Source: Candidatus Ratteibacteria bacterium
GTDB taxonomy: Bacteria > CAIJMQ01
DNA: 63,010 bases
Reading direction: 5' to 3'
Assembly (NCBI GenBank): GCA_028715665.1
Contig: JAQURI010000001.1
Span: forward strand, 1-63,010
A program made the position numbers and the translations under genes. Positions within the stretch are counted from its first letter, which is position 1; every line of letters begins with the position of its first letter. Below are positions 8,347 to 55,967 of the stretch, in pieces. The notes under the pieces are model-generated. The model saw only the letters and a program-made list of their open reading frames with translations, ran no database searches and was not told the DNA's origin.

Positions 8347-8379
8347 TAACCGATAGCTTTATCGTAATTATGTCACAAA
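8347..8379 (+). promoter_or_regulatory. Conserved promoter-like cassette, copy 1
   Basis: Sequence TAACCGATAGCTTTATCGTAATTATGTCACAAA. The palindrome TGTACGTACA (8331-8340) lies 6 nt upstream. Confidence 0.6.
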
Positions 8380-8390
8380 AGCATCTGATA

Positions 8391-8531
8391 ATGAAAAGCA
8401 AAGGTAGAAAAGATATAAAAAGAAAGCTAAACTTATTTCAAAAAGAAGCGTTAATTGCTATTGAAAACGCACGAGCCATTGTTACAATCCGGAAGAAAAA
8501 AGCAAGAAACGGCCACGAGGCAATAAAATGA
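8391..8531 (+). CDS. Small basic hypothetical protein
   Basis: First ATG downstream of cassette copy 1, with ATGA overlap to the following GT4 gene. An alternative start is the ATG inside the cassette (8370). Confidence 0.35.
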   Translation: MKSKGRKDIKRKLNLFQKEALIAIENARAIVTIRKKKARNGHEAIK

Positions 8532-9610
8532 TTCGCACCGGATTAAATTATCTTGTAGATTATACAGGAAACATGACCACAGACGCAAAACTCAACTATG
8601 TCGTCGAGTCCAGAGACTGGTCAATAAAAGAGGACGGAAAGGAAATTACAAGCCGGATGAATCGTGCAAAGAGCCGGTTCGATTTAAATCCGATTATGAA
8701 AAGCCGAATAACAACAACAGCAAAAGGCTTACGAAACAAAATCATTCATTTCGGCTCAGTGAACACATATTCAATTCCTCACGAATCGAATCGATGTGCA
8801 ATGTCATGGTTCCATATCACTCAGAACGACGAGAACCTGAAAAACATCAAGGAAATAGGAAAACATATCGAGATAATTCATACTACAAACCAGATAACCA
8901 GAAACATTTTCATCGGTATGGGTGCAGACGAAAGCAAAATAGTAACCATCCCCCTCGGCATAGACCTCACCCAGTTCAAACCTATATCCGAAGTAGATGG
9001 ATACTGGGAACTCAGGAACAAGCTAGGGATTCCGGCAGATGTGAAGGTAATAGGTAGCTTTCAAAAGGACTCAAATGGCTGGGATGAAAAAAAAGACAGC
9101 AGCCCAAAGTGGGTTAAGAATCCGGAGGCATTTATTCAAGTCGTAAAAAGGATACACAGGCAATATGATGGAAAAATATATGTGCTTCTTCTGGGGGCGA
9201 ACAGAAGCTATGTAAAAAATCAATTACAAACGCATGGGATACCATTCAAACATATTTATCTAAAAAATCACAAGGACGTAGCTATATACTATAAAGCAAT
9301 AGATATATATTTGGTAACATCTCGTTCTGAAGGTATGCCGAAAGCCATTTTAGAGAGCATGGCATCAGGGATTCCGATTATCAGTACCCCTGTTGGGATA
9401 GCAAAGGAAATAATAGAAGACGGTGAAAATGGTTTCCTCGTAGACATTGATGACACTACAGGAATGACAAATTACGCACTTGATATTTTGAACAGTGATT
9501 CGCTTGCACGCAGATTAAGGGTTGGGGGCATAGAAACAGCTAAAAAATATTCATGGAATATTATAGCGAAAAGATTTTATCATGAAATCTACAAGCAATT
9601 AGAGGAATAG
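8528..9610 (+). CDS. Glycosyltransferase, GT4 family
   Basis: Signature SRSEGMPKAILESMASGIPIISTPVGIAKEIIEDGENGFLV. Confidence 0.85.
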   Translation: MIRTGLNYLVDYTGNMTTDAKLNYVVESRDWSIKEDGKEITSRMNRAKSRFDLNPIMKSRITTTAKGLRNKIIHFGSVNTYSIPHESNRCAMSWFHITQNDENLKNIKEIGKHIEIIHTTNQITRNIFIGMGADESKIVTIPLGIDLTQFKPISEVDGYWELRNKLGIPADVKVIGSFQKDSNGWDEKKDSSPKWVKNPEAFIQVVKRIHRQYDGKIYVLLLGANRSYVKNQLQTHGIPFKHIYLKNHKDVAIYYKAIDIYLVTSRSEGMPKAILESMASGIPIISTPVGIAKEIIEDGENGFLVDIDDTTGMTNYALDILNSDSLARRLRVGGIETAKKYSWNIIAKRFYHEIYKQLEE

Positions 9611-9710
9611 CAAAATCCCGTCTTGTTTGCCTTCAGGACGTTTCGTTGTTCAAGTTACAGTTAGATTTATAATGCTTCATCTTCATGTGTGTTTATAAAG
9701 AGGAATATTG

Positions 9711-10262
9711 ATGAAAATTAAACCGGTATTGTATGTGATTGTGTTGATTGCAGCGATTGGGTTGAGCGGATGTGTTCAGAATCCGAAAATAGAACAAACA
9801 GTCCAAATCCCAGAATTAAAACAGGCAAGTGCTTCCATTAAAATAACTGAGATTACGGACATGTTGTTATCTTACGACCAGAGATATGTATCTTCATCGG
9901 ACGGACGGTTTAAAATGCTAAAATCTGTTGGGTGGTTTGACCCGAATTCAAACTATCAACAGGTAACAGTATATCACGACATCACATCAGCAGGTTTATC
10001 TAATCAGTTACATCTGTATTTATCAGCATTAGACAGTCCAACAGTCTTATCATTAAGCGGGAATGGGCTTCCTGCAAATTATGGTTATATGTCCACCACG
10101 TTCAACAACCAGAAAGGCTCAAATCAGATAAGAGTTTATGAAGTGTATATTGACTACAAAGTACCCGAAACTCAACCAGTCCCAACAGGGGAATTATATA
10201 TTAACGCGGGCGAAAACCGTTTAACTATTAACTTCGGGGCACCAACATCCGGTTTTATTTAG
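9711..10262 (+). CDS. Secreted lipoprotein-like hypothetical protein
   Basis: Signal peptide with lipobox-like LSGC. TTTATAAA lies about 30 nt upstream. The ATG at 9711 is preferred over the TTG at 9708. Confidence 0.55.
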   Translation: MKIKPVLYVIVLIAAIGLSGCVQNPKIEQTVQIPELKQASASIKITEITDMLLSYDQRYVSSSDGRFKMLKSVGWFDPNSNYQQVTVYHDITSAGLSNQLHLYLSALDSPTVLSLSGNGLPANYGYMSTTFNNQKGSNQIRVYEVYIDYKVPETQPVPTGELYINAGENRLTINFGAPTSGFI

Positions 10263-10269
10263 TTAATTT

Positions 10270-10300
10270 GGGGTCAAATGGTAGAGAACCATCAGCCCCC
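10270..10300 (+). repeat. Truncated IS200/IS605 LE relic, copy C
   Basis: GGGGTCAAATGGTAGAGAACCATCAGCCCCC shares GGGGT...GGTAGAGAA with the LE of the complete IS. It starts 8 nt after the stop of the upstream gene. Confidence 0.45.
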
Positions 10301-10361
10301 ACACGTTCAATTGACCTACACATTCAGGACTAACCAGAACTCTTTTGTACGTACAGCCGCC

Positions 10362-10394
10362 TGACCGATACCTTTATCGTAATTATGTTATCTC
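10362..10394 (+). promoter_or_regulatory. Conserved promoter-like cassette, copy 2
   Basis: Sequence TGACCGATACCTTTATCGTAATTATGTTATCTC. TGTACGTACA (10346-10355) lies 6 nt upstream, and the start codon at 10404 follows. Confidence 0.6.
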
Positions 10395-14392: not shown

Positions 14393-15701
14393 GGGTCAAG
14401 GGGTAGAAATCGCCCCGTGCCTTGAGGCCGGGGCTGAATCGTACCCCTTGGAATAGCAACACCATTGACCGATACCTTTATCGCAATTATGTTTCAAAGG
14501 ACTACAAAGAATGAAAAAAACATACCAGTTCAGGCTATACCCGACGAAAACCCAAGAAGTAACACTGACTAGGACTCTTAGTACGTGCAGGCACCTGTAC
14601 AATAATGCTCTTTCCGAGCGAAGGAAGCAGGCAACTTCAAACACAGTATTGAGACTGCTTCAGGTCTTCCCATGGGGAAAACCGGACTGGGTAACTAAGA
14701 ACGACCAGATGTTAAGCTTGACTGAAACAAAGACCGAGCATCAGTCCGAGGTTTACACACAGGTCTTACAGGATGTAATCAAACGTGTAGACAGGAGTTT
14801 CAAGAATTTCTTTAATGGCTTCGGCTATCCTCGTTTTCATGGCAGGAACCGGTACAACAGTTTCACGTATCCCCAACTGGGCTTCTCACTCAACTCCGGG
14901 AAATTAACCCTTTCAAAAATCGGCGGTATCAAGTTAATGCAGCACCGGAAAATAGAAGGAACAATCAAAACATGCACAATTAAAAAAGACATCGACCGAT
15001 GGTATGTTACTTTTTCCTGTGAAATAGAATCTCCCGTACCGGTTGAAATCAAAACCAGAACCGGGATAGATGTAGGCTTGATAGATTTAATCACATTAAG
15101 CAACGGTGAACAGGTAAAACCCCCGAAATTTCTGCGAGCATCAGAAAGCAAACTGATACAGGAACAGAGACGATTAAACCGTAAAAAGAAGGGTTCAGGA
15201 AAGAGGAACCGGCAAAAGATAATAGTAGCCAAGGTACACAGGAAAATCAGGAACCAGCGAAAAGACTTTGCTCATAAGCTATCGAGACAACTGGTCGATA
15301 GCTATGACCTGATAAAATTCGAAGATTTGCAAATAACGAATATGGTTCAGAACCATCATGTTGCAAAAAGCATAAGTGATGCTGGCTGGTATCAGTTGAT
15401 GAATTTTACGGACTACAAAGCAGGATACGCTGGTAAGTTCGTAGAATTCGTAAATCCATCCGGAACAAGTCAGACCTGTACCTGTGGTTTCGGTGTAGCA
15501 AAAGACCTGTCAGTAAGGATACACCGTTGTCCTTCCTGCGGTCTTGTAATGGGACGAGACCAAGTATCAGCGATATTGATAGAAAACAGGAATTCAGTAT
15601 ATACCGTAGGAACTACGGAAATCAAAGCCCGTCGAGGACTCTCACGAACAAGAGAGCCGATGCAGCGGGACGCCCAAGCCATTCAGGGTCGGGCAGTTCA
15701 C
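14392..15701 (+). mobile_element. tnpA-less IS200/IS605-family unit (LE + internal promoter cassette + tnpB + RE)
   Basis: The LE at 14392-14462 is homologous to the LE of the complete IS, with hairpin GCCCCGTGCC-TTGA-GGCCGGGGC at 14412-14434. An imperfect RE hairpin lies at 15672-15694, and the terminus AGTTCAC (15695-15701) is identical to the RE terminus of the complete IS. Joining the flanks gives a tidy stop-SD-start junction. Confidence 0.75.
14466..14498 (+). promoter_or_regulatory. Conserved promoter-like cassette, copy 3 (inside the tnpB unit)
   Basis: Sequence TGACCGATACCTTTATCGCAATTATGTTTCAAA. The tnpB ATG at 14511 lies 22 nt after the cassette's internal ATG. Confidence 0.6.
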
Positions 15702-17470: not shown

Positions 17471-18960
17471 AAAGCAAAATCGTTATGATATACCCGCCGA
17501 CAGGCAATATCGTAGACTATAACACCCCAACAGGAACTCTTTATGTGGCAACTTATTTACAGGAAAAGGGCTATGATGTGAGATTCATAGACTGTTCCGT
17601 TGAGGAAAACTGGCACGAAAGAGTATTGGAGGAAGTAAAAGATGCCCTATGTTTTGGCTCTTACTGCATGTCAATTCACATAAAGCATTTAATTCCGTTA
17701 CTAAAAGACGTAAAAAGAATCAATCCAGCGATAAAGACTGTATTGGGGGGAGCACATCCAACCCTGTTCCCGGAGCAGACGGCAGCAGACCCGCTAGTAG
17801 ACTTTGCTGTAATAGGGGAAGGAGAAGAGACAATGCTGGAACTGGTACAAATGATAGAAGCGGGAAAGACTGATTTCTCCGAGGTAAAAGGGATTTCATA
17901 TAAACACAAAGGGAAAGCCCTAACAACCCCTGCCCGTGAATTCATAGACATGGACACATTACCATTCGTGGACTGGAGTTTAATGAGCCAGAAAGCACTC
18001 GACAGCATGAAAACAAAAATAGCAAGAATACAAACAAGCAGAGGCTGTCCTTTTCATTGTAGTTTCTGCATCAACGTCGTCTCAAAAAACGGTAAGATGA
18101 GATACAGGTCTCCGCAGAAAGTCGTTGACGAAATAGAACATATGATAAAGACCTATGGAGTAAAGAGGTTTGGGATAAGAGATGAAGTTTTCCTGTTGAA
18201 CCGCCAGAAAGCAAAAGAAATAGCTCAGGGCATAATTGACAGAGGACTCGAAATAACATGGCTCGCTAATCCGCACGTTAAATTCCTGCGGGAAAGCTGG
18301 ATTGATGATGAATATCTTGATTTACTCAAACGGTCAGGATGCACAAAACTCCAATGTGGAGGAGAATCGGGAAACCAGAGGATATTGGACATGCTTCACA
18401 AGACAGTTACACCAGAAGACACCCTGAATTTTGTGAAACGAACAAAAAAGCACGGAATAATTTCACTCGTAGCATTCATGACAGGACTCCCGACAGAGAC
18501 CAGAGCAGAACAATTGCAAACATTAAAGCTGATATGGGGAATAATGGAGATAGCTCCGGAAACGTTCATTAACGGGGCAGCAATGTTCAGACCATACCCC
18601 GGAGGCGAATTATACGAACAGTGCGTGCGGGATTATAATTTAAAAATGCCAATAACATTCCGGGGCTGGATGGACGTAGAAACAATCGGGGGAACAAAAC
18701 CACCATGGATAAAAGACCTGTATTTCAGTCAGAACCTGTGGATGCATACTACGTTTGCCAGATACGAAAATCTTGGCCAGTTAACAGGTATCTGCAAGAA
18801 AATATATAAAAAATACGGGTTACTTCCAGCAATCGGTGCATATTTATGGGGAAAAGTCTCACATTATCGATTGAAGCATAACTATTATGGATTTCTGATA
18901 GACTTTTGGCTGCTTCAAGCATACTGGCATCAGCGCGGAGAAATTCCGGAATTAAGTTGA
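17467..18960 (+). CDS. B12-binding-domain radical SAM enzyme
   Basis: N-terminal cobalamin-binding-like domain (IVMIYPP...DVRFIDC) followed by SRGCPFHCSFC (CX3CX2C). Confidence 0.88.
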   Translation: MKSKIVMIYPPTGNIVDYNTPTGTLYVATYLQEKGYDVRFIDCSVEENWHERVLEEVKDALCFGSYCMSIHIKHLIPLLKDVKRINPAIKTVLGGAHPTLFPEQTAADPLVDFAVIGEGEETMLELVQMIEAGKTDFSEVKGISYKHKGKALTTPAREFIDMDTLPFVDWSLMSQKALDSMKTKIARIQTSRGCPFHCSFCINVVSKNGKMRYRSPQKVVDEIEHMIKTYGVKRFGIRDEVFLLNRQKAKEIAQGIIDRGLEITWLANPHVKFLRESWIDDEYLDLLKRSGCTKLQCGGESGNQRILDMLHKTVTPEDTLNFVKRTKKHGIISLVAFMTGLPTETRAEQLQTLKLIWGIMEIAPETFINGAAMFRPYPGGELYEQCVRDYNLKMPITFRGWMDVETIGGTKPPWIKDLYFSQNLWMHTTFARYENLGQLTGICKKIYKKYGLLPAIGAYLWGKVSHYRLKHNYYGFLIDFWLLQAYWHQRGEIPELS

Positions 18961-18988
18961 CCGATATATTTATAGTAATTATGTTTCA
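18958..18988 (+). promoter_or_regulatory. Conserved promoter-like cassette, copy 4, cut off by IS insertion
   Basis: TGACCGATATATTTATAGTAATTATGTTTCA is followed directly by the IS right end (GTGAACT on the + strand). Its TGA is the stop codon of the upstream gene. Confidence 0.55.
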
Positions 18989-18993
18989 GTGAA

Positions 18994-20172
18994 CTACCAC
19001 CCTACAAGTAGGGTGGCTTCCTGCTTCATCATGTCTATGCTTAGACCACTCTTGCAGGCTTCAATTCCCGCAGTTCCTGCGGTACATCTATCCAGAACTA
19101 CATTAGCTGCATTGGTATCTCTGTTCTCAACATTCCCACACTGGTTGCATCGAAATACTCTATCCCTCAATGTCATTTTCTGTTTGTTCCCACACACATG
19201 ACAGGTCTGTGATGTTCCCGCAGCTATACAGAGCTTAACCTGCTTCCCAGCTTCTTCCGCTTTGGATGCTGTTAAGGTCTGTAGTTGATACCATCCTGCG
19301 TCCATGATGGATTTCGCAAGATGATGATTCTGAACCATGTTTTTGATTTGTAAGTTCTCGAATGCGATTAAATCGAATCTGGTAACGAGTGTACGTGCAG
19401 TCTTATGAGCGAAATCCTTTCTCTGGTTTCGGATTTTCTGATGTATTTTTGCTACTGTGAGTTTCTGTTTCTTCCTGTTATTCGACCTGAGTTTCTTCTT
19501 TGCCAATCGTCTCTGTTCCTTTGCAAGTTTGTTTTCTGATTGTCTCAGGAACTTCGGGGGCTTGACCATTTCCCCGGTATTTAATGTAAGAAGGTCGGTT
19601 AATCCGACATCTATTCCGACCATTGTAACCACAGGTACTTTCTCAACTGCCTTATTCATCTCAACCGTGAATATCGCATACCATCGGTCAACGTCTCTCT
19701 TGATAGTACATGTTTTGATATTCCCCTTAATGTTCCGATGAAGGATTATCCGTATTGTTCCTATCTTTGAGAGATTGAGTTTTCCAGATTCAATTGTTGC
19801 TCCGCTCTGGGGATACGTGAATGAATCATACCTGTTCATTCCCTTGAATCGGGGAAAACCTGAACCACGAAAGAAGTTATCAATGCTCTTATTGACTCTC
19901 TTTAACACGTTCTGGAGAATCTGTGAATGTACTTCTTTCTGGAAGGAGTCTTTGCACGCTGCAAGCGTATTAGCTTGGTCTTCGTAATATATCCATTCTG
20001 GTTTGCCCCACGGGAATACCTGAAGAGTTTGTCTCAGTCTATTAAGCTCTATGCGTCGTTTCCGTTCTGCAAGAGCGTCGTTATAGAGATGCCTGCACGT
20101 GTTCAGAGTCTTGACCATAGTTACTTCTTGGTTCTTGGTTGGATATATACTGAACACGTAGGCTTTTTTCAT
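18994..20172 (-). CDS. tnpB: TnpB (IS200/IS605 OrfB, RNA-guided RuvC nuclease)
   Basis: RuvC residues in GIDVGLTDL, AFENLQI and NRDTNAANV; zinc finger CHVCG...CNQCG. Confidence 0.9.
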   Translation of the reverse strand: MKKAYVFSIYPTKNQEVTMVKTLNTCRHLYNDALAERKRRIELNRLRQTLQVFPWGKPEWIYYEDQANTLAACKDSFQKEVHSQILQNVLKRVNKSIDNFFRGSGFPRFKGMNRYDSFTYPQSGATIESGKLNLSKIGTIRIILHRNIKGNIKTCTIKRDVDRWYAIFTVEMNKAVEKVPVVTMVGIDVGLTDLLTLNTGEMVKPPKFLRQSENKLAKEQRRLAKKKLRSNNRKKQKLTVAKIHQKIRNQRKDFAHKTARTLVTRFDLIAFENLQIKNMVQNHHLAKSIMDAGWYQLQTLTASKAEEAGKQVKLCIAAGTSQTCHVCGNKQKMTLRDRVFRCNQCGNVENRDTNAANVVLDRCTAGTAGIEACKSGLSIDMMKQEATLLVGW

Positions 20173-20226
20173 TGGGTATTGTATATACCTATAGGTTTAT
20201 ATGTTTTGTGGTATATATAGAGCGAT

Positions 20227-20619
20227 ATGGGAAAAACAAGCTCATGCATCTACAACATCAATTATCACCTTATCTGGTGCCCAAAATATAGAAAACCAAT
20301 ACTTGAAGAACCGAAAGTCAAAACGTTTCTTGAAGACCAGTTACAGACAATAGCTGATGCGAAAGAATATGAAATTCTCGAACTTCAAGTCATGCCAGAC
20401 CATATTCACTTATTCATTTCTGCTAAACCGTTTGAAGCTCCAACTGATATTGTTAAGGTCTTTAAAGGGGTAACAGCATTACGGTTGTTCAAGAAGTTCC
20501 CTGAATTGAAAGAACAATATTGGAGAGGGAAACTATGGTCTCCAAGCTATTATGTCGGAACTGCCGGAACAGTATCAGCGGAAACTATTAAGATGTATAT
20601 TCAAAATCAGAAAGGATGA
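20227..20619 (+). CDS. tnpA: TnpA (IS200-type Y1/HUH transposase)
   Basis: HUH motif in PDHIHLFISAKP and catalytic-Tyr region SPSYYVGTAG. 130 aa. Confidence 0.9.
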   Translation: MGKTSSCIYNINYHLIWCPKYRKPILEEPKVKTFLEDQLQTIADAKEYEILELQVMPDHIHLFISAKPFEAPTDIVKVFKGVTALRLFKKFPELKEQYWRGKLWSPSYYVGTAGTVSAETIKMYIQNQKG

Positions 20620-20713
20620 GGGGCAGTATGTCGCTATGCAGGGGGGTACGATTCATCCACCGGACGAGTCCGGTGGTATTCTCTACCCCTCTACCCCACA
20701 TTATAAATACAAC

Positions 20714-20899
20714 ATGGACGAAGAAATCACAGTAAAAATAGACAAGATTCATAGTCAATCACCCCGTAATAGAAAGTCAAGAGCATGTCTCTTGAAGGAT
20801 ATGGGCAACCAGTTGACAAGGAGACTTAGGAACAAACTATGCAGAAGAATAACACCGGTCGAAAAAACATCGCGGGAAGAACCTACAAGTATAAACTAA
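20714..20899 (+). CDS. Small basic hypothetical protein (candidate first gene of the IS-interrupted operon)
   Basis: This is the first ATG after the IS left end. Removing the IS would place it 24 nt after the internal ATG of cassette copy 4, within the 19-29 nt range of the other copies. Confidence 0.3.
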   Translation: MDEEITVKIDKIHSQSPRNRKSRACLLKDMGNQLTRRLRNKLCRRITPVEKTSREEPTSIN

Positions 20900-22630: not shown

Positions 22631-22661
22631 ATTAGAGCATGGGGCAGGGGGTAATTGACAA

Positions 22662-23386: not shown

Positions 23387-23647
23387 TCAGGTCTTCGGGG
23401 GATAGAAAGCCCGTGATAAAATCTTATTACGTTCTTTATAATTTCTTAACCATTCATCATCCACATCATCTAATTTCAATGGGACAGGATTTGAAGCCAG
23501 CATAAAAGCTTTATCATCGTTTGGATTATGTGTTTCTATCCTCCAATCTATTGTATCGTGCGGCTGCCGGCAACATTTTTTGTGACTTCTGGTATGATGT
23601 TTATTTTTTAATTTATTTACCAACTTTTTAGCTGAATCAGGTTTCAT
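23387..23647 (-). CDS. Hypothetical basic protein
   Basis: 86-aa ORF with ATGA-type overlap to the upstream (- strand) gene. Confidence 0.45.
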   Translation of the reverse strand: MKPDSAKKLVNKLKNKHHTRSHKKCCRQPHDTIDWRIETHNPNDDKAFMLASNPVPLKLDDVDDEWLRNYKERNKILSRAFYPPKT

Positions 23648-23931
23648 TTTCTACCTTTTTTTCTTAAATCTGTACACAACTGGCATAATTGAACGTGTTC
23701 TCGTTTACACCCCTTAATTACAGTAAATCCTTTTTTACATTGCCTGCAAGTTCTATGAATTTTCCAACCCCGTCGACCTCTCCAATCTACATAATCAGGG
23801 TTCATTAAAAGTTCTTCGGGCAAAAGAACTCGCTGACCCTCCATTCTACAAACTTTCAAAGCATCTTTTAAACCAATCTTTTTAACGATTTTACCAGGAG
23901 GAATCGGCTCATTGTTAATTCGCATTTCCAT
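23644..23931 (-). CDS. Hypothetical Cys-rich (zinc-ribbon-like) protein
   Basis: Contains CRQCKKGF...GCKREHVQLCQLC. 95 aa. Confidence 0.45.
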   Translation of the reverse strand: MEMRINNEPIPPGKIVKKIGLKDALKVCRMEGQRVLLPEELLMNPDYVDWRGRRGWKIHRTCRQCKKGFTVIKGCKREHVQLCQLCTDLRKKGRK

Positions 23932-23936
23932 AAGGT

Positions 23937-25295
23937 CTATCTATCCTTCATTAAATCATAAAAATCAATGTCGCCATAGATTTTTTTCCCATCATTCATC
24001 CAGCAAATGAGCCCTTTGAGCAACAGCCCATTATATTTCGGAGAAACACGGTTTTCGTAAGTTCCATCTTTATAAATCGAAGTAACATATCCATCTTCAG
24101 TTCGATGATTTACAAGAGCAGAAGCGAACAACTCCTTTCCAGCATTTAAATACAACTGGTTCCCGGTAAGTTCAGCCAATCGTCGCAATGAAATTGAAAA
24201 ATCAGTCTGGTTATCAAGATGGTTCTTTATATTATCCGGTGTAGCAGGTATAAGGCCATTATCCCATTTCAAGTTAAGCCACCTATCGGCGATTTCAGAA
24301 GCAATCTTGAGATACAAAGGATTGGAATCCACAAAAAAATAAGTATCACAGAGAATATCAATCATGACAAAACTTTCTGTCAGGGCAGGATTCTTTATAT
24401 TGCCGTCTGGATACCACAACCCATAAACAAGACCGTCCCGGTACAATTTCTTCAATACCGAATCAATCCAGCGGATTATAGCTCCTTTATATTTTTCATC
24501 TTTTGTAATCCGATAGGCAGTAATAAGTGCAAAAATAAAATTACTATTTGCCTTCATGAATTGAAACATTGCCCCGGTCGGTAATTGAAAAAGTGTATAA
24601 GCCAGAGATTCCAGTAATTTGTTTTTCAATCCTTTTTTATTCAAATAGTAAAATTGTGCATTAGCAATCTGGTTTATAGAATCAGGGAGTATATTGATAT
24701 TACAATTCAGATAATTAAAAAGTTCACTACTGATATGGGATTTAAAATTAAATAACCCATATTTCTTAAAACAGTAATCATCTAAGAATGCATCCAAGGC
24801 TCTCACTCCCCATCCTTTCCAGTCTGGGAACAGGTCGGAGTTTTCAAGAAATACTTCAATCAATCCTCCAGACCATGCCGACTGCAAATCAGGAGCACCA
24901 TTCCTTGAAAGGTCATAACACATACGGATATGTCCGTTCTTAATAAGATAAACCACAATCCCCGAAAAGCCTTCAATAATCATATTTTCAATAAGCTCAT
25001 CACGGGATTGTCTATAAAAACAGCACACGGCTCCAAGATACTCGTCGTTTCTCCATGAAATTATTTTATCATTATAGGTCGTCATTCCATTGTACGTGAT
25101 TTGGCGTGACAACTCTATCTGGTTACGAGTAAAATCATTTTCACCAAAATAAAGCAGGAAGGGCAGGATATCATCGAAATCAGCATAAATAGTTTCAGTT
25201 CCGACCGGGTAAGTCTTAGAAACCATACCATTAGAATCAAGATACTTTGTCTTGATGTTTTGGATTATCTCCTTAGCAGCACGATTTAGTTCCAT
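23937..25295 (-). CDS. Hypothetical protein, 452 aa
   Basis: Long ORF in the - strand sugar-modification operon. No motif recognised by eye. Confidence 0.6.
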   Translation of the reverse strand: MELNRAAKEIIQNIKTKYLDSNGMVSKTYPVGTETIYADFDDILPFLLYFGENDFTRNQIELSRQITYNGMTTYNDKIISWRNDEYLGAVCCFYRQSRDELIENMIIEGFSGIVVYLIKNGHIRMCYDLSRNGAPDLQSAWSGGLIEVFLENSDLFPDWKGWGVRALDAFLDDYCFKKYGLFNFKSHISSELFNYLNCNINILPDSINQIANAQFYYLNKKGLKNKLLESLAYTLFQLPTGAMFQFMKANSNFIFALITAYRITKDEKYKGAIIRWIDSVLKKLYRDGLVYGLWYPDGNIKNPALTESFVMIDILCDTYFFVDSNPLYLKIASEIADRWLNLKWDNGLIPATPDNIKNHLDNQTDFSISLRRLAELTGNQLYLNAGKELFASALVNHRTEDGYVTSIYKDGTYENRVSPKYNGLLLKGLICWMNDGKKIYGDIDFYDLMKDR

Positions 25296-25298
25296 ATT

Positions 25299-26213
25299 CT
25301 AATAGGACTCCGGGAATGAATTGTGAAAACAGTCTGACTTCCCACGTGTAACCACACATACAGACTGTGAAGGATATCCAATTGCTATGGCTCCACAGAT
25401 AAGCAAATAATCAGGGATTTTTAATAGTTTCCTGATATCGGATTCTTTTAACACGCTGCTGTATGAGGTGTACGTACACCAACAAGCCCCAAGACCAAGA
25501 TATTCAGCCGTTAATAAGATATTTTGAATTGCAGCCGCAGAATCCTGATACGGTGTAAATCTTTCTTCGGTGAGCCTATACCCACGCTTATCAGCTAATA
25601 CTATAAGGATAACAGGTGCTGTATGAGCAAATAGTTTACCGCCGGGTATTGATTCGGAAACCAGTTTCTTTTTGGTCGGGTCATTTATGATAAGATATTT
25701 AAGACCCTGCTGGTTGCAGGCAGTAGGTGCCCATTCAGCCGAAGAGATTAATTGCTCTATTATATCAGGCTCAAGTTTTTTATCGATAAACTTACGAACG
25801 CTCCGTCTCTGTTTTATAATTTCTAAAAGCTCCCGATTTTCTGGTTTTTGATGAAATTTACCAGTCATCGGGCAATTTTTTACATCATGATAATAATTTA
25901 TAAATTCCCATCGTATATTCTGTGCCCATTTTAATTGAGGCAGTGATTCATAACCTCGTAGATATAACTCCTCAAGACACCGGGATAGTTCATTATAGAC
26001 CTGTTTTTGTTCCAGAACATTCTTTGGTTTCAACATAATATATTTCTCGACGAGATGTGCTAATTTAGTCGTTCTCATTATTAGGAACTCATCGTCATTC
26101 TGTTCTGAAACCTTGAATCGAAGTGCTGAAATAGTTTCTTTCGTAAAATCAACATAGGTAACGCTTGCAAGTTTAAGTAACTGCATTATCCGATAGACTG
26201 TTTTAATGTTCAT
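25299..26213 (-). CDS. Nitroreductase-family flavoprotein with N-terminal extension
   Basis: RRSVRKFIDKKLEPDIIEQLISSAEWAPTACNQQ is the typical nitroreductase N-terminal signature. It starts about 135 aa into the ORF. Confidence 0.7.
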   Translation of the reverse strand: MNIKTVYRIMQLLKLASVTYVDFTKETISALRFKVSEQNDDEFLIMRTTKLAHLVEKYIMLKPKNVLEQKQVYNELSRCLEELYLRGYESLPQLKWAQNIRWEFINYYHDVKNCPMTGKFHQKPENRELLEIIKQRRSVRKFIDKKLEPDIIEQLISSAEWAPTACNQQGLKYLIINDPTKKKLVSESIPGGKLFAHTAPVILIVLADKRGYRLTEERFTPYQDSAAAIQNILLTAEYLGLGACWCTYTSYSSVLKESDIRKLLKIPDYLLICGAIAIGYPSQSVCVVTRGKSDCFHNSFPESY

Positions 26214-26674
26214 CCCTGTTTTAGCTCCCAGTTGTATGGAATTTTAGAAGTAAACGGGTCATTACGAAATATTTCATTCGGGTCATGAGGAATCGTAGCG
26301 CAATTGGCGACAATAGCCGTCTCAGTTCCAATCCCTTTAAATCCATTCCATACTTCAGGAGGAACTGTCACAAGAGCATAATTTTCATCTCCTATAAACA
26401 GTTCCATGATATTTCCACGTGTAGAAGACCCTTCTCTATTATCATAAAGAACAAGTTTTATTTTGCCATGAATACAGGCATAGTTCAATTTCATACTTTT
26501 ATGATAATGCCACGCCTTAATTACACCGGGATGGATAAGTGAAAAATAAATCTCGCCAAATTTCTCAAACACCGGGCTATCATTTCTTAACATATGAAAG
26601 ATACAACCTCTTTCATCAGGGATTTTACGTAATGGAGTTACAACAACCCCTTCAATTTGTGCCATATTTTTCAA
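26210..26674 (-). CDS. RmlC-like cupin (NDP-sugar epimerase/isomerase-like)
   Basis: IPDERGCIFHM...AWHYHKSM...GKIKLVLYDNREGSSTRG resembles dTDP-4-dehydrorhamnose 3,5-epimerase-type cupins. Confidence 0.65.
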   Translation of the reverse strand: MKNMAQIEGVVVTPLRKIPDERGCIFHMLRNDSPVFEKFGEIYFSLIHPGVIKAWHYHKSMKLNYACIHGKIKLVLYDNREGSSTRGNIMELFIGDENYALVTVPPEVWNGFKGIGTETAIVANCATIPHDPNEIFRNDPFTSKIPYNWELKQG

Positions 26675-27600
26675 TCTCTCCTATTATGTTCTTTATACCA
26701 ATCAATTGTTTTTTTCATTCCATCATATAATGTAGTTTTAGCTTTCCAGTGAAGTAGTTTCCTAGCATTATATGTATCAGCACAGGCATAACACATTTCA
26801 TTATTACGATATGGTACCGCACCCCAGACAGGATTGATTTTACTATTAAGTAGATTCAAAATGAGATTGATAGTAGTCCGAAGGGTCGGTGCATGTCCAG
26901 TTCCAATATCAAATATTTCATGTGCTTTCGTATAAGGGGGACTTGAAATCAACGACATATAAGCATCCACTATATCATCAACATAAATATAGTCCCATTT
27001 TTGATATCCCGGCGACGTTTTCAGTTCAGTCGTCTCACCTTTAAGAGCGGACTGGATTATAAATGGAATAAATTTACGTGCATTATCAAATTCTCCGTAA
27101 GCAGGAAATTGGCGAAACGTCACACACTGCATTCCCCGTTCGCCATAATAATCACAAAGAAGTTCGCCCTGTAATTTAGTAGCAGCATACAAGCTAATCG
27201 GATTAATTTTATGTACCTTGGATTTTCCATCATATACGAATGCAGTGCTTGCATTCACAAACAGTTTGATATCATTTTTAAGTGATTCATCAAGAAGAAG
27301 GGTTAAACCACGAACATTCGTATCATAGAGAGGCATTATATCAGAAAAGCAATGCTCAACAACATAATACGCAGCAAGATGGTAAACAATCTCCGGCTTA
27401 AATTTTCGGACGGCATCAGCAACTTTTACATTATCAGCTAAATCAGCAATAAAAACATTAAGCCGGCCATAAATATCTTCAATTCGTTCAATATTAGACC
27501 CAGCACGCTGAATAATCCCAACATCATGGTCATCAGAGACAAGTCTTCGGGTTAAATGAGACCCGATAAACCCCGTCGCTCCGGTAACAAGTATTCTCGT
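26671..27600 (-). CDS. NAD-dependent epimerase/dehydratase (SDR) lacking a canonical start codon
   Basis: The Rossmann motif (T)RILVTGATGFIGSHL is encoded in frame upstream of the first ATG (27336), and YAATK is the catalytic motif. The frame opens right after an in-frame TAG (27604-27606). ACG at 27598-27600 sits 7 nt after GGAGGA, where ATG is expected. Confidence 0.65.
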   Translation of the reverse strand, partial: TRILVTGATGFIGSHLTRRLVSDDHDVGIIQRAGSNIERIEDIYGRLNVFIADLADNVKVADAVRKFKPEIVYHLAAYYVVEHCFSDIMPLYDTNVRGLTLLLDESLKNDIKLFVNASTAFVYDGKSKVHKINPISLYAATKLQGELLCDYYGERGMQCVTFRQFPAYGEFDNARKFIPFIIQSALKGETTELKTSPGYQKWDYIYVDDIVDAYMSLISSPPYTKAHEIFDIGTGHAPTLRTTINLILNLLNSKINPVWGAVPYRNNEMCYACADTYNARKLLHWKAKTTLYDGMKKTIDWYKEHNRRD

Positions 27601-27603
27601 AAA

Positions 27604-28008
27604 CTACTCCTCCTGAAGGGTTGGAGCATCCGATTTCATAGCTTCAACTTCTGCAAGAAAATCCATTTGAATATCATAAATACCATCACTATGAGCCGAT
27701 ATATCTCTAACTGAATCAAGTCCAAGTTTTTTATGATTGTTTAAAAAAGACCACGTAACCATTTCATTCTTTCTGGATATTACTACTGCTTTTCTAATAT
27801 TTCCTTTAACTGCGAAAGTTCTTCCTCGAACTAAAGCATCATAATAACATTCTTTGCATACAGGCATACCAGCCCATACACCAGTTTTTGTGATGTCAAC
27901 TTTTTTACCTTTATACATTGGAATTGACCATTTCAATGGGGTACATTCGTTGCATATTGCACAGTTGGTGTATGCTTCGGTCAAATCGATGACAATCTCT
28001 TCATTCAT
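27604..28008 (-). CDS. Hypothetical zinc-ribbon protein
   Basis: The MNEEIV start overlaps the upstream GT2 stop by 8 nt. Contains CAICNEC...CKECYY. Confidence 0.45.
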   Translation of the reverse strand: MNEEIVIDLTEAYTNCAICNECTPLKWSIPMYKGKKVDITKTGVWAGMPVCKECYYDALVRGRTFAVKGNIRKAVVISRKNEMVTWSFLNNHKKLGLDSVRDISAHSDGIYDIQMDFLAEVEAMKSDAPTLQEE

Positions 28009-28903: not shown

Positions 28904-28953
28904 GAATCAAAGAAATAAAACATAAAGTAGATAAAGATATCGGGAAACTCCAA

Positions 28954-28986
28954 CGACCGATACCTTTATCGTAATTATGTTTCAAA
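28954..28986 (+). promoter_or_regulatory. Conserved promoter-like cassette, copy 5
   Basis: Sequence CGACCGATACCTTTATCGTAATTATGTTTCAAA. The start codon at 28999 lies 22 nt after the internal ATG. The cassette sits in a divergent intergenic region. Confidence 0.6.
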
Positions 28987-47734: not shown

Positions 47735-47954
47735 TTTTCTGCACATACAGTTAACTAGCGATAAAAGCGCAAGTTATATATTCTTTATGTTTTAATTCAA
47801 TCTCTTAATCTTAATCCATTAAAAAACAATGGAAAAAAAAACAGGATACGGATGTGGTATTACCATGGGAAAAACAGGAACAGATACAACAGGACTATCG
47901 GACTCGGATTTTTTAGGAGAACACTGTCAAGCATTAGAAAAACGGGTGGTATAA

Positions 47955-51230: not shown

Positions 51231-51263
51231 CAACCAATACCTTTATCGTAATTATGTTTCAAA
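51231..51263 (+). promoter_or_regulatory. Conserved promoter-like cassette, copy 6
   Basis: Sequence CAACCAATACCTTTATCGTAATTATGTTTCAAA. Start codon at 51283. Confidence 0.55.
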
Positions 51264-51282
51264 CACCAAAGATAGAGAATAA

Positions 51283-52918: not shown

Positions 52919-53575
52919 ATGAACAGCCAAGCACTCCACCCGGAACATTGTTCACACGGAGCATTATTACAGCGTGGCTGGACTGAAGCCGGGATAAAAC
53001 GATTCTTAAAAGCCCCGGACAAGACAGCTCCAAACCCTCATTACAGGCGGGGTGCGGATATGAAACTATATTTACTTACACGGGTAGAATCAATGGAAAA
53101 AAGTGAAGAATACCTGATTTTCTGTAAAAAAAATAAGACACGAAAGCAAGGGGCAATAAGTGCGGTCAGGACAAAGAAAGAAAAGCTTCTCAGGGATGTA
53201 GCAGGATGGGAGATTCACATTACCCGCCAGAACCTCACAGATGTCCTACAGGACGCAATCTCCTCATATAACGAGCGAAGGGCTGACCGGAGCGAAGATG
53301 GGTTCATATACGAACCTGCATCGTTAAATTCAGATAAAGAGTTCCTTTACAGGATAACGGTCAACTTCTTACGTCATCGATGCAGCCCGTATGAACGAAA
53401 GCTCACTGAAACGGCAGGTAAAGTAGGAACAAAAGAAGCATATATCCTGCTGAACCAGAACATATTCAAGAGGATATCCCATATCTTTCCTGAGCTTCAG
53501 GCAGAATGCGATAGGCAGTTAGAAGAAAAAATAAGACAATATCTCGAAGAATCCAACAATCTGCACGTACATTAG
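52919..53575 (+). CDS. Hypothetical protein
   Basis: 218-aa ORF. The segment ITVNFLRHRCSPYERKL faintly recalls DUF2293-type proteins (weak). Confidence 0.55.
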   Translation: MNSQALHPEHCSHGALLQRGWTEAGIKRFLKAPDKTAPNPHYRRGADMKLYLLTRVESMEKSEEYLIFCKKNKTRKQGAISAVRTKKEKLLRDVAGWEIHITRQNLTDVLQDAISSYNERRADRSEDGFIYEPASLNSDKEFLYRITVNFLRHRCSPYERKLTETAGKVGTKEAYILLNQNIFKRISHIFPELQAECDRQLEEKIRQYLEESNNLHVH

Positions 53576-53577
53576 AT

Positions 53578-53610
53578 TGACCGATATCTTTATCGTATTT
53601 ATGTTTTAAC
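53578..53610 (+). promoter_or_regulatory. Conserved promoter-like cassette, copy 7
   Basis: Sequence TGACCGATATCTTTATCGTATTTATGTTTTAAC. TGCACGTACA (53562-53571) lies 6 nt upstream. Start codon at 53621. Confidence 0.55.
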
Positions 53611-54529: not shown

Positions 54530-54747
54530 TGGAAGAAAAAGAAAGCATGATAATTATATTGCTAGTTGTAGCATTATTATTAATATCACTAGACGCACCG
54601 GTTGAACCAAAAAACATCAACGAAACACATCCGGCATCACAAACAAGACCGCCCGTCGAATATTTTAACTCAAGGCTTATCGTCAACAACACATCATTGG
54701 AATATAATGGAACCGCATTAGAAACTCCGGAGATGCAAAGACCATGA
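54529..54747 (+). CDS. Small membrane-anchored protein
   Basis: N-terminal TM segment (MIIILLVVALLLISL). TAATG overlap. Confidence 0.45.
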   Translation: MEEKESMIIILLVVALLLISLDAPVEPKNINETHPASQTRPPVEYFNSRLIVNNTSLEYNGTALETPEMQRP

Positions 54748-55070
54748 CATGCCCCGGCTGCAAAGAAGAATTCGACGATTTTAACCACAGAATGCGATAT
54801 AATAAAGCATTAGATATAGCTGTATGTGAAAAATGTGATGAAAAGATAGATAATCATCATCTGGTTGACGGCAAATATATAATTCATAAATGCAAATGCT
54901 GTGGAAACATTGACAAACTGGAATGGGTGTCGTACAAGAAAAGAGGTCATCCAGTCGGCGTGAAGAATAAAAAAACATTAGAGAAGATTGATAAAGAAAG
55001 AGAAGCTCAGAAACGATTAACAAAATGGACGGAAGAACCAAAAACACTGGAGGAATTCGCGATATGGTAA
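54744..55070 (+). CDS. Zinc-ribbon protein
   Basis: CPGCKEEF...CEKC...CKCCGN. Confidence 0.5.
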   Translation: MTCPGCKEEFDDFNHRMRYNKALDIAVCEKCDEKIDNHHLVDGKYIIHKCKCCGNIDKLEWVSYKKRGHPVGVKNKKTLEKIDKEREAQKRLTKWTEEPKTLEEFAIW

Positions 55071-55810
55071 AAAAAGGAAAACGAATGTACAGCGACCGGC
55101 GTGAAAATAACGGTATCACTGAGGGATGTAACTTCAAATGTAAATACTGTGCCTTTGAAGCTTTACAGAAGCGATTCGGCGTAACTGAAGAGGATAGAGC
55201 CTATACTCCTCATACTCACATAGAACGGGTTAATAAGAAGCCCAAATTTACGTCAGGAGACCAGTTCATTACCATAGGGCTTAATGGTGACATCAGTTTT
55301 GCATCGGATGAAGTGATTAGACTCATAATTGGTTATTGTGTTCAATGGAGCGACAGGACATTCTTACTCCAGAGCAAGAACCCGGCACGATTCATAGAAA
55401 CAGATGAGATAGGAACACCGAAGTTCTATTTTCCAAGCAACGTGATACTTGCTTGTACCCTCGAAACGAATTATTCTCTCATCCCATCGGCTTCTGTCAA
55501 GGGCGAATACATTCCGTATAACACGATATCTAAAGCCCCAGACCCGGCATTACGAGCAGAAGCAATGGTCAAGATACGGGATAACAGGAAAATAGTAACG
55601 ATAGAACCAATACTTTTATTTAATTTAGATGTAATGCTTAGATGGATAAAAGAAATAAGTCCGGAGTTTATTTATATTGGTTACAATTCCAATATTAAAT
55701 TGAAGTTACCAGAACCCTCCTTATCGGAAACCACTGAGTTAATTAAGAGCTTAAAAGGCAACGGATTTGAAGTCAGAGAGAAATTGATAAGAAAGGCATT
55801 CTATGAATAA
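55064..55810 (+). CDS. Radical SAM protein (small, unassigned subfamily)
   Basis: GCNFKCKYC (CX3CX2C) near the N-terminus. The ATG at 55064 overlaps the upstream stop. Confidence 0.65.
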   Translation: MVKKGKRMYSDRRENNGITEGCNFKCKYCAFEALQKRFGVTEEDRAYTPHTHIERVNKKPKFTSGDQFITIGLNGDISFASDEVIRLIIGYCVQWSDRTFLLQSKNPARFIETDEIGTPKFYFPSNVILACTLETNYSLIPSASVKGEYIPYNTISKAPDPALRAEAMVKIRDNRKIVTIEPILLFNLDVMLRWIKEISPEFIYIGYNSNIKLKLPEPSLSETTELIKSLKGNGFEVREKLIRKAFYE

Positions 55811-55934
55811 TTTGGCAACTGGGCAAAACGTCATCATAAGTGGCAAGGTATTCCGAAATATATAAAAGGACATTATAGACGAAGAAAAAAAGACAGCGCC
55901 AGCACAGTCCGAGGAAACTGTATGTACAGTAACC

Positions 55935-55967
55935 TGACCGATACCTTTATCGTAATTATGTTTGAAA
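55935..55967 (+). promoter_or_regulatory. Conserved promoter-like cassette, copy 8
   Basis: Sequence TGACCGATACCTTTATCGTAATTATGTTTGAAA. TGTACA (55923-55928) lies 6 nt upstream. Start codon at 55977. Confidence 0.6.

What the first reader, a model, noticed from the sequence alone, without database searches (positions are those of the whole stretch)
8347..55967. Eight near-identical copies of a ~33-nt promoter-like cassette marking the head of gene strings
TGACCGATACCTTTATCGTAATTATGTTTCAAA, with 0-5 mismatches, occurs at eight sites:
- 8347-8379
- 10362-10394
- 14466-14498
- 18958-18988 (truncated)
- 28954-28986
- 51231-51263
- 53578-53610
- 55935-55967

All copies are on the + strand and all are intergenic. 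In each, the first start codon of a co-directional gene string lies 19-29 nt after the invariant internal ATG. The core has a TATA-like TTTATCG and an inverted repeat, CGATA-N4-TATCG, that straddles it.

Archaeal BRE/TATA elements normally share only about 8-14 nt. More than 25 nt of near-identity at eight loci therefore points to an extra sequence-specific factor (a dimeric regulator on the inverted repeat) or to a conserved 5' leader. The cassette ties the glycosylation island and the orphan-gene block into one regulatory scheme, which argues that both belong to the same genetic element.
Basis: partly seen in the sequence, partly recalled or inferred. Interest (0 to 1): 0.8.

Follow-up and report, generated by a model that had tools for sequence, protein, structure and literature searches.

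The report
Clade-specific extended archaeal promoter cassette
A nearly invariant 26-33 bp DNA block that sits a fixed 31 bases in front of start codons is most likely a lineage-private, unusually long archaeal promoter that launches leaderless messages for about half of the gene strings on this misbinned Methanoperedens-related contig.

Summary
- a diverged ninth copy on the - strand (28914-28946), forming a back-to-back promoter pair;
- a degenerate tenth copy (about 47740-47796);
- a palindrome, TGYAYRTRCA, exactly 6 nt upstream of four copies.

The conserved block is 26 nt (ACCGATACCTTTATCGTAATTATGTT) with random flanks. It shows three signs of being a promoter:
- In 28 of 42 copies from the window and related metagenome contigs, a start codon lies at cassette position 42-47, against 8% at random. 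That puts TTTAT about 30 nt before the likely transcription start, which is archaeal BRE/TATA geometry with leaderless mRNAs.
- At orthologous sites in relatives whose AglB is 65-82% identical, the core stays 97% identical while the spacers fall to 23%.
- It is absent from relatives at 59% AglB identity or less, from the two Methanoperedens loci sampled (a 2-Mb chromosome-sized contig and a MAG contig), from GTDB genomes and from IMG/VR.

The 'truncated' 18958 copy was split from its gene by an IS605 insertion. Removing the IS restores the normal spacing.

The inverted repeat is not the conserved unit, and a structured 5' leader is not supported. The 'single genetic element' inference is also unsupported. 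No transcription start was mapped and no binding factor was identified.

The parts
8331..8379 (+). Palindrome TGTACGTACA (8331-8340), 6 nt, then class A cassette (8347-8379). ATG of a 46-aa ORF at 8391 (cassette position 45), followed by GT1 gene 8528-9610.
   Evidence: Pfam
10346..10394 (+). Palindrome (10346-10355), 6 nt, then class A cassette (10362-10394). ATG at 10404 (position 43) heads the string 10404-14392.
   Evidence: The L020 ortholog of the 10404 protein has the same cassette.
14466..14498 (+). Class A cassette lying inside a TnpB-only IS, between the IS left-end hairpin (14392-14460) and tnpB (ATG 14511, position 46).
   Evidence: right end of the IS at 15701
18958..18988 (+). 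Class A cassette truncated after position 31 by an IS605 insertion. TGA at 18958-18960 is the stop codon of gene 17467-18960.
18989..20699 (-). IS605-family element: tnpB 18994-20172 (-), tnpA 20227-20619 (+), right-end terminus GTGAAC at 18989, left-end hairpin about 20640-20697. It separates the 18958 promoter from its original gene (61-aa ORF, ATG 20714, then GT2 genes 20839-22630).
   Evidence: Pfam. Excision puts ATG 20714 at cassette position 43-46.
28914..28946 (-). Class B cassette (TTCCCGATATCTTTATCTACTTTATGTTTTATT). ATG of GT2 gene at 28903 (position 44). It heads the - strand string 28903..23387.
   Evidence: Conserved in L016, L021, L023 and L024.
28954..28986 (+). Class A cassette, back-to-back with the class B copy (7-nt spacer). 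ATG at 28999 (position 46) heads the 3HCDH...AglB string.
47740..47796 (+). Possible degenerate copy: palindrome TGCACATACA, then CGATA, about 10 extra nt, then a class-B-like TTATATATTCTTTATGTTTTAAT. It lies upstream of a 41-aa ORF and the zinc-ribbon gene 47955.
   Evidence: (5.3 bits, within noise). Identified by eye, so weak.
51231..51263 (+). Class A cassette. ATG at 51283 (position 53, a leader of about 10 nt).
53562..53610 (+). Palindrome TGCACGTACA (53562-53571, overlapping the last codons of gene 52919-53575), 6 nt, then cassette (53578-53610). ATG at 53621 (position 44).
55919..55967 (+). Palindrome TGTATGTACA (55919-55928), 6 nt, then cassette (55935-55967). ATG at 55977 (position 43) heads the archaeal pilin string.

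Best explanation
The cassette is a lineage-specific, unusually extended archaeal core promoter.

**Proposed reading of the sequence.** Position 1 is the T of TGACC.

| Element | Cassette positions | Position relative to inferred start | Proposed role |
|---|---|---|---|
| CCGATA | 4-9 | about -39 to -34 | BRE-like element; sets direction for TFB |
| TTTAT(CG) | 12-18 | about -31 to -25 | TATA box for TBP |
| TTATGTTTCA | 22-31 | about -21 to -12 | Invariant proximal element |

RNA polymerase would then start at or 1-3 nt before the start codon, giving leaderless or nearly leaderless mRNAs for the gene strings. About 40% of copies carry a palindrome, TGYAYRTRCA, centred near -53. It is most simply a site for a dimeric regulator upstream of the BRE.

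Two sequence subclasses share this frame. Class A has CGTAA between TTTAT and TTATG. Class B has (A/C)T(T/A)CT there.

**Shown.**
- The sequence class, its sharp boundaries and its strand and position rules.
- Conservation under divergence.
- Restriction to one clade.

**Inferred.**
- The transcription start site.
- Binding of TBP and TFB.
- That the roughly 26 bp of near-identity, about the size I recall for a TBP-TFB footprint, reflects a specialised TFB/TBP pair or an extra factor rather than recent copying.
For: 1. **A discrete class.** Eight copies score 39-52 bits and one scores 24 bits, against noise of 6 bits or less. None is expected in shuffles.
2. **Sharp boundaries.** Information content is high only at positions 3-28 and flanks are random. 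This comes from 40 copies that were ascertained by similarity to the motif.
3. **Phasing with start codons.** An ORF of at least 40 aa starts at position 42-47 in 28 of 42 copies, with the mode at 43, against 7.9% at random positions. 26 of the 28 start with ATG. The AglB N-termini align from that ATG.
4. **Location.** Every copy in the window is intergenic and points at the next gene. The one exception, 18958, is explained by an IS605 insertion; removing it restores an ATG at position 43-46.
5. **Purifying selection.** In the five-way orthologous alignment, the class A core is 97% identical and class B is 85%, while the spacers are 23-24%. The AglB proteins are only 65-82% identical.
6. **Archaeal context.** The contig carries AglB, archaeal pilin and TnpB genes, and the best named relatives are Ca. 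Methanoperedens.
7. **Fit to a published archaeal consensus.** CGATA-N2-TTTAT matches the haloarchaeal BRE CGAAA and TATA TTWT layout. In that organism, leaderless means a 0-5 nt leader (PMC4983044).
8. **No RNA signal.** Rfam finds only tRNAs and folds are not better than shuffles.
Against: - No transcription start site was mapped and no protein binding was shown, so the geometry argument is indirect.
- 14 of 42 copies have start codons further away (positions 53-122) or no ORF. Some copies therefore give leadered or non-coding transcripts, or are decayed.
- CCGATA is less purine-rich than textbook BREs.
- Leaderless mRNAs are a minority in the Methanosarcinales studied so far: 11% in M. mazei and 16% in Methanolobus psychrophilus (PMC4983044).
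- Most related copies were found by searching for the motif itself, so the conservation profile is ascertainment-biased.
- No candidate dedicated factor (TFB, TBP) is encoded in the window.
Confidence: 0.8

Rival explanations
1. The cassette is an ordinary BRE/TATA promoter overlaid by the operator of a dimeric regulator that binds the inverted repeat CGATA-N4-TATCG. The regulator, not the basal factors, would explain the extra conservation.
For: - The 5+5 inverted repeat is present in 29 of 46 copies.
- Archaeal repressors commonly bind over or just downstream of the TATA box (general knowledge).
- The total conserved information, about 47 bits in the biased set, exceeds what a basal promoter needs.
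Against: - 17 of 46 copies break the repeat, always on the right arm only. Among them are the class B copies, which are themselves conserved across five relatives.
- The best-conserved positions outside TTTAT are CCGATA and TTATGTTT, and these do not form a palindrome with each other.
- The repeat can be read as a by-product of GATA in the BRE next to TATC in the TATA box.
Confidence: 0.15
2. The copies are alike because they were spread recently by a mobile element or by recombination, not because each base is selected. Candidate vehicles are a promoter carried on an IS200/IS605 element or MITE, or an integron-like attachment site at the head of gene cassettes.
For: - One copy (14466) lies inside a TnpB IS, between its left-end hairpin and tnpB.
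- Solo left-end hairpins lie 75-150 nt upstream of two other copies (8130-8198 and about 10270).
- Gene content downstream of the cassette differs between relatives. In the window and L016, a 3HCDH-led module sits between the cassette and AglB.
Against: - Homologous IS copies in a contig of the MAG that also holds L023 (L029) and in Methanoperedens (L030) have the same left-end hairpin but no cassette.
- Seven of nine copies have no IS genes nearby.
- Similarity stops abruptly at the cassette edges.
- Orthologous copies have stayed 97% identical while neighbouring intergenic bases have randomised. That is long-term selection, not recent copying.
- I did not see the usual integron signatures, an integrase or attC-like imperfect repeats, but I did not search for them specifically.
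Confidence: 0.06
3. The cassette is transcribed and acts as a conserved 5' leader or small RNA element, with the true promoter further upstream.
For: - An invariant ATG and a short hairpin are present.
- A few copies, those with TTAAG instead of TTATG, have no ORF within about 100 nt.
Against: - Apart from the optional palindrome, nothing is conserved upstream and there is no TATA-like box there.
- Folding is not better than shuffles.
- There is no Rfam match.
- The internal ATG is in frame with the gene in some copies and out of frame in others (read from the sequences).
- There are no compensatory changes in the hairpin.
Confidence: 0.04
4. The cassette is a bacterial sigma-70-type promoter, (T)TGACC-N17-TATGTT, consistent with the contig's deposit as a Ratteibacteria MAG.
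For: The consensus scan scores two copies at 9 of 12 with a 17-nt spacer.
Against: - That score is no better than background: 30 sites found against 32 expected.
- The best-conserved bases (TTTAT, CCGATA) would fall in the 'spacer', while T1 and G2 of the would-be -35 hexamer are among the least conserved.
- The genes are archaeal.
Confidence: 0.02

Closest known systems
Archaeal core promoter (BRE + TATA box + promoter-proximal element + initiator), especially the haloarchaeal layout of CGAAA, TTWT and a -10 WW with leaderless mRNAs
   Same: - The order and spacing match: a CGATA-like BRE, two bases, a T-rich TATA, then an A/T-rich proximal region.
- The start codon lies about 30 nt after the TATA.
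- It is co-oriented with the gene.
- Divergent pairs sit back-to-back.
   Different: - About 26 contiguous positions are nearly invariant, not about 10-14.
- Conservation extends 4 nt upstream of the BRE and about 12 nt downstream of the TATA.
- It is a discrete class that covers only about half of the transcription units here.
- There are two fixed subclasses.
- Leaderless geometry is unusual for relatives of the Methanosarcinales (PMC4983044).
Phage T7-type class promoters, and poxvirus or giant-virus early promoter motifs
   Same: One long, near-identical promoter sequence is repeated at the head of many gene strings of one replicon or lineage, which suggests a dedicated recognition protein.
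   Different: - No single-subunit RNA polymerase or element-encoded transcription factor was found in the window.
- The sequence has plain archaeal BRE/TATA anatomy.
- Viral or extrachromosomal status of the contig is not established.
Archaeal regulon operators next to core promoters (for example the Thermococcales glycolytic motif for TrmB-family regulators, or upstream activator sites such as those of Ptr2). These are recalled from general knowledge.
   Same: The palindrome TGYAYRTRCA sits at a fixed distance upstream of the BRE in a subset of promoters, as expected for a dimeric factor that modulates recruitment of TBP and TFB.
   Different: - The sequence matches no operator I can name.
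- No cognate regulator was identified.
- No common function is evident among the genes that carry it.
IS200/IS605 (TnpB) element ends
   Same: Two of the eight copies touch such elements, and one lies inside one.
   Different: - The cassette is not part of the conserved IS ends.
- Homologous ISs lack it.
- In one case the IS is a disruptor of the promoter, not its carrier.

Membership tests
Archaeal BRE/TATA core promoter | T/A-rich TATA box with an adjacent upstream BRE that sets direction | tested here: met
   TTTAT is invariant in 40 of 40 copies and CGATA is nearly invariant two bases upstream. The layout parallels the CGAAA/TTWT consensus (PMC4983044).
Archaeal BRE/TATA core promoter | Intergenic, upstream of and co-oriented with the transcription unit it serves | tested here: met
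   All nine window copies meet this; 18958 does so after removing the IS. 28 of 42 copies have an ORF start at position 42-47, against 8% at random.
Archaeal BRE/TATA core promoter | Transcription starts about 23-27 nt downstream of the centre of the TATA box | not testable with these tools
   No RNA data are available. The start-codon phasing is compatible with it.
Archaeal BRE/TATA core promoter | Bound by TBP and TFB, which recruit RNA polymerase | not testable with these tools
   This needs in vitro transcription or footprinting.
IS200/IS605 end or MITE | Repeat is part of the conserved element ends or hairpins and travels with tnpA/tnpB | tested here: not met
   The left-end hairpin is conserved in L029 and L030 but the cassette is absent there. 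Seven of nine copies have no IS genes.
Structured RNA leader or riboswitch | Stable conserved secondary structure with covariation, or a match to a known family | tested here: not met
   Rfam finds only tRNAs. Fold z-scores are -0.3 to -0.9. Hairpin breaks are never compensated.
Bacterial sigma-70 promoter | Conservation concentrated in the -35 and -10 hexamers with a variable 17-nt spacer | tested here: not met
   Conservation peaks in the would-be spacer. The scan score is at background level.
Phage-type promoter for a dedicated (single-subunit) RNA polymerase | A cognate polymerase or specificity factor encoded on the same replicon | tested here: inconclusive
   Pfam scans of most of the window's ORFs (the 2149-aa surface protein and a few small ORFs were not scanned) found no polymerase, TFB or TBP. 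The replicon is incomplete.

The most novel reading that the evidence does not exclude
The cassette, with its upstream palindrome, is a private promoter code. It would be read by a dedicated TFB/TBP paralogue or an element-encoded factor in a young clade of Methanoperedens-associated DNA, possibly an extrachromosomal element rather than a chromosome. Such a code would give this replicon its own leaderless expression programme for surface-glycosylation and accessory genes. That would be an archaeal counterpart of T7-type or poxvirus-type promoter classes.
Probability: 0.2. Interest if true: 0.75.

Novelty: new variant of a known kind. Interest (0 to 1): 0.55.

Why it matters
**For archaeal transcription.** Archaeal promoters are usually short and degenerate. 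A 26-bp block held almost invariant across diverged relatives implies a reader with much higher specificity than generic TBP/TFB. This clade would be a natural system in which to find it.

**Practical uses.**
- The motif is a cheap sequence tag for recruiting contigs of this uncultivated lineage. This contig was deposited under a bacterial name.
- It can be used to predict transcription units and true start codons.
- It is a compact candidate promoter for genetic tools in Methanosarcinales and Methanoperedens.

**A rare example.** The window also shows an IS605 insertion cutting a promoter from its gene, and a TnpB element that uses the host-lineage promoter.

Tried and rejected
**Searches for the motif elsewhere.**
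- An exact 25-mer scan of GTDB species genomes and of IMG/VR found nothing.
- A relaxed-architecture scan of IMG/VR found one chance hit, in a 22% GC giant-virus contig.
- Six of the 19 metagenome hits were unrelated matches with no similarity outside the searched pattern, apparently coding sequence.
- No paper in the library contains the motif.
- The four Methanoperedens extrachromosomal-element papers I keyword-searched have no occurrence of 'promoter'.

**Attempts to place the contig.**
- An AglB-based scan of GTDB genomes found no relatives.
- I took PF21916 'mtd_2nd' in L023 for a methanogenesis gene and spent a homology search on it. It is the Mtd-like (DGR target) family and says nothing about chromosomal context.
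- Borg-like identity is made less likely by the near absence of tandem repeats and a GC content of 40%.
- PHROG and phage searches of the orphan block gave nothing usable. The plasmid search gave only distant haloarchaeal AglB hits.
- Whether the contig is chromosomal or extrachromosomal stays open. About 190 kb of cassette-bearing DNA shows no housekeeping genes, but the sampling is biased.

**Candidate binding proteins.**
- The window's wHTH protein shows no homology to a wHTH gene behind a class B cassette in L009.
- I considered an EarA-type TACATA site for the palindrome. I dropped it because the window's own copies (TGTACGTACA) lack TACATA.

**Palindrome copies inside genes.** The exact copy at 28861 encodes the Cys-Thr-Tyr motif of a GT2 enzyme; this was read from the sequence and translations. 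I assume the same for 25469 but did not check it.


Full report

Yes. The 33-mer TGACCGATACCTTTATCGTAATTATGTTTCAAA occurs on the + strand at 8347, 10362, 14466, 18958, 28954, 51231, 53578 and 55935, with 1-5 mismatches. Dinucleotide shuffles give no matches. It splits the window cleanly: eight sites score 39-52 bits, one - strand site (28946..28914) scores 23.8 bits, and nothing else exceeds 5.9 bits. Mononucleotide shuffles reach up to 7.8 bits. The cassette is therefore a discrete class, not the top of a continuum of promoter-like sequences.

The other gene-string heads in the window carry ordinary TTTATA-type boxes. Examples are the gaps at 9611, 20173, 35725 and 61297.

**2.

- *A ninth copy.* It lies on the - strand, back-to-back with the 28954 copy (7-nt spacer), and heads the GT2 gene at 28903.
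- *An upstream palindrome.* In four copies, TGTACGTACA (0-1 mismatch) lies exactly 6 nt upstream: 8331, 10346, 53562 and 55919. At 53562 it overlaps the last codons of the preceding gene, so it belongs to the promoter side rather than to a terminator.
- *The 18958 copy is not followed by a co-directional gene.*
  - It is cut after position 31 by a complete IS605-family element.
  - That element carries tnpB at 18994-20172 on the - strand and tnpA at 20227-20619 (Y1_Tnp, E 4e-41).
  - Its right-end terminus, GTGAAC, is at 18989, and its left-end hairpin is at about 20640-20697.
  - Deleting 18989 to about 20699 in silico joins the cassette to ATTATAAATACAACATG. This places the ATG of a 61-aa ORF (20714), which precedes two GT2 genes, at cassette position 43-46.
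  - That is the same spacing as in the intact copies. All eight copies therefore obey one rule.
- *A possible tenth copy.* A degenerate, insertion-bearing copy with the palindrome TGCACATACA lies at about 47740-47796.

**3. Where the contig comes from**

The window is an entire 63,010-bp NCBI contig deposited as a 'Candidatus Ratteibacteria' MAG (locus tags PHW62_). Its informative genes are archaeal:
- an archaeosortase-A-associated AglB;
- an archaeal type IV pilin;
- IS605 TnpB genes.

The best named relatives are Ca. Methanoperedens: 45% identity for AglB and 74-78% for TnpB. I conclude the contig is misbinned.

Whether it is chromosomal or part of a large extrachromosomal element is unresolved. 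Points bearing on this:
- It has five tRNA genes, almost no tandem repeats and about 40% GC.
- The roughly 190 kb of cassette-bearing DNA I collected shows glycosylation genes, radical SAM enzymes, multihaem cytochromes, IS elements, a T4-type RNA ligase and many orphans, but no housekeeping genes.
- That sample is biased by how it was collected.

**4. The cassette in relatives**

- *No matches in reference collections.* An exact 25-mer is absent from 185,579 GTDB species genomes and from IMG/VR.
- *Metagenome hits.* A 21-mer pattern found 19 JGI metagenome stretches. Thirteen are true relatives, mostly from one metagenome (Ga0180732). Six are unrelated matches with no similarity outside the pattern.
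- *Density.* One 13.8-kb stretch (L017) has eight to nine copies.
- *Boundaries.* Across 40 copies, conservation is confined to positions 3-28, ACCGATACCTTTATCGTAATTATGTT. TTTAT, T22, T23 and G26 are invariant, and both flanks are random. The palindrome TGYAYRTRCA sits at exactly -16 to -7 in 13 of the 40.
- *Two subclasses share one frame,* CCGATA-N2-TTTAT-N5-TTATGTTTCA. Class A has N5 = CGTAA (28 of 46 copies). Class B has N5 = ATTCT, CTTCT or CTACT.

**5. Evidence for selection rather than recent copying**

The divergent class B/class A pair is found at the same place in five relatives. In L021, L023 and L024 it lies between a GT2 gene and AglB. In the window and L016 it lies between that GT2 gene and a 3HCDH-led module; in the window that module is followed by AglB. 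Across the window and the three AglB-anchored loci, the AglB proteins are only 65-82% identical.

In the alignment of these intergenic regions:

| Segment | Mean pairwise identity |
|---|---|
| Class A core | 97% |
| Class B | 85% |
| Spacer between them | 24% |
| Stretch from the cassette to the ATG | 23% |

Going further out, the cassette disappears. It is absent upstream of AglB at 59% identity (L031), 47% (L026) and 45% (L025, a 2-Mb Methanoperedens contig). The relaxed architecture has no match at up to 3 mismatches in L025, L026, L029 or L030, and L031 has only two poor sites at 5 mismatches. The cassette is therefore a young innovation restricted to one clade.

**6. How it most likely works**

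The start codon of the first downstream ORF lies at cassette position 42-47 in 28 of 42 copies. The mode is 43, and the rate at random positions is 7.9%. 26 of the 28 are ATG. The first T of TTTAT is therefore 31 nt before the A of the ATG.

From general knowledge, an archaeal TATA box spans about -31/-30 to -24/-23. On that basis transcription should start at, or a base or two before, the start codon, which gives leaderless mRNAs. Positions 42/43 are most often T/A, a pyrimidine-purine initiator.

The elements then fall as follows:
- CCGATA at about -39 to -34. I read CGATA as a BRE. The haloarchaeal consensus is CGAAA, followed by TTWT and a -10 WW element (PMC4983044).
- TTATGTTTCA at about -21 to -12, an unusually long and fixed proximal element.

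From memory, the conserved 26 bp is about the size of a TBP-TFB footprint. I did not check this against the literature. The palindrome, centred near -53, is placed where archaeal activators usually act; this too is from general knowledge.

None of this was shown biochemically. The transcription start and the proteins involved are inferences.

**7. Rival explanations**

- *Operator on the inverted repeat.* CGATA-N4-TATCG is complete in only 29 of 46 copies. All breaks are on the right arm alone, and the conserved class B copies lack it. It looks like a by-product of a BRE next to a TATA box. I cannot exclude an additional binder.
- *Conserved 5' leader.* No promoter-like conservation exists upstream, RNA folds are no better than shuffles, and Rfam finds only the tRNAs.
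- *Mobile spread.*
  - The 69-nt repeat at 8130-8198 and 14392-14460 is the left-end hairpin of a TnpB IS family. The same hairpin precedes tnpB in L029 and in a Methanoperedens MAG contig, L030.
  - The 14466 cassette therefore lies inside an IS. The homologous ISs lack it, and most cassettes have no IS nearby.
  - The IS appears to have captured the lineage's promoter, not spread it.
- *Bacterial sigma-70 promoter.* TTGACC-N17-TATGTT scores at background level, and the conservation pattern is wrong for it.

**8. Comparison with known systems, and novelty**

By anatomy this is an archaeal BRE/TATA promoter. It meets the sequence-level membership features; start site and factor binding could not be tested. 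It differs from known examples in four ways:
- the length and near-invariance of the conserved block;
- its two fixed subclasses;
- the fixed-distance upstream palindrome;
- leaderless geometry in a relative of the Methanosarcinales, where leaderless mRNAs are 11-16% of transcripts (PMC4983044).

In behaviour it recalls phage T7-type or poxvirus early promoter classes. No dedicated polymerase or factor was found in the window. No paper in the library contains the motif. I rate it a new variant of a known kind.

**9. Verdict**

- The promoter interpretation is well supported (0.8).
- The dimeric-regulator-on-the-inverted-repeat and 5'-leader ideas are not supported.
- The 'one genetic element' inference does not follow.
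- Interest is moderate (0.55). The finding gives a concrete, testable case of a high-specificity promoter class in an uncultivated archaeal lineage, but the mechanism is still inferred.

Noticed in passing
window 1-63010 (whole contig): The contig is deposited as a 'Candidatus Ratteibacteria' (bacterial) MAG. It carries archaeal AglB, archaeal pilin and Methanoperedens-type TnpB genes, so it is almost certainly misbinned.
   Followed up: yes
window 18989-20699: A complete IS605-family element (tnpA on +, tnpB on -) inserted between a promoter cassette and its gene. In-silico excision restores the normal promoter-to-ATG spacing.
   Followed up: yes
window 14392-15701; 8130-8198; about 10270-10300: A TnpB-only IS whose 69-nt left-end hairpin (fold z -3.0) recurs as a solo copy at 8130-8198 (90% identical) and as a partial copy near 10270. 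Each lies a short distance upstream of a cassette. The same hairpin precedes tnpB in L029 and in a Methanoperedens contig (L030).
   Followed up: partly
window 22661-23102 (-): A tight cluster of five tRNA genes, all with long variable arms: Ser-GCT, Ser-TGA, Leu-TAG, Leu-TAA and Leu-CAA. It has an ordinary A/T-rich upstream region and no cassette.
   Followed up: no
window 25469-25478 and 28861-28870: Exact copies of the palindrome TGTACGTACA inside - strand genes. The 28861 copy encodes the Cys-Thr-Tyr motif of a GT2 glycosyltransferase and is a coding coincidence. I assume the same for 25469 but did not check its reading frame or family.
   Followed up: partly
window 40360-46809: A 2149-aa predicted surface protein (DUF2341 in the precomputed annotation of the identical gene in L027). 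It is packed with N-x-S/T sequons, ends in a glycine/proline-rich linker and transmembrane segments, and lies downstream of AglB. It is probably a heavily N-glycosylated envelope protein.
   Followed up: no
window 57542-57994 and 59005-59462; 57002-57109: Paralogous segments, 67-85% identical and about 1.45 kb apart, lie within the orphan-gene block. There is also a perfect 36-nt direct repeat spaced 72 nt apart.
   Followed up: no
L023 15813-17072; L002 (contig Ga0180732_1002830): Cassette-bearing relatives encode PF21916 'mtd_2nd' proteins. This is the Mtd-like family, the target-protein family of diversity-generating retroelements. It has thousands of metagenomic homologues, one of them named a viral tail protein.
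   Followed up: partly
L012 (cassette at 189, - strand), L019 (cassettes at 1623 and 5277), L019 1447, window 51264-51282: Copies with longer leaders (ATG at position 53-66) share a second short motif, GGATAGATAAT(T), directly before the ATG. In some it also occurs right after the cassette. Its function is unknown.
   Followed up: no
L002 4510, L017 7242, L017 8935, L023 2624 (-): A cassette variant with TTAAG instead of TTATG. It often has no ORF within about 80-120 nt and may drive non-coding transcripts.
   Followed up: no
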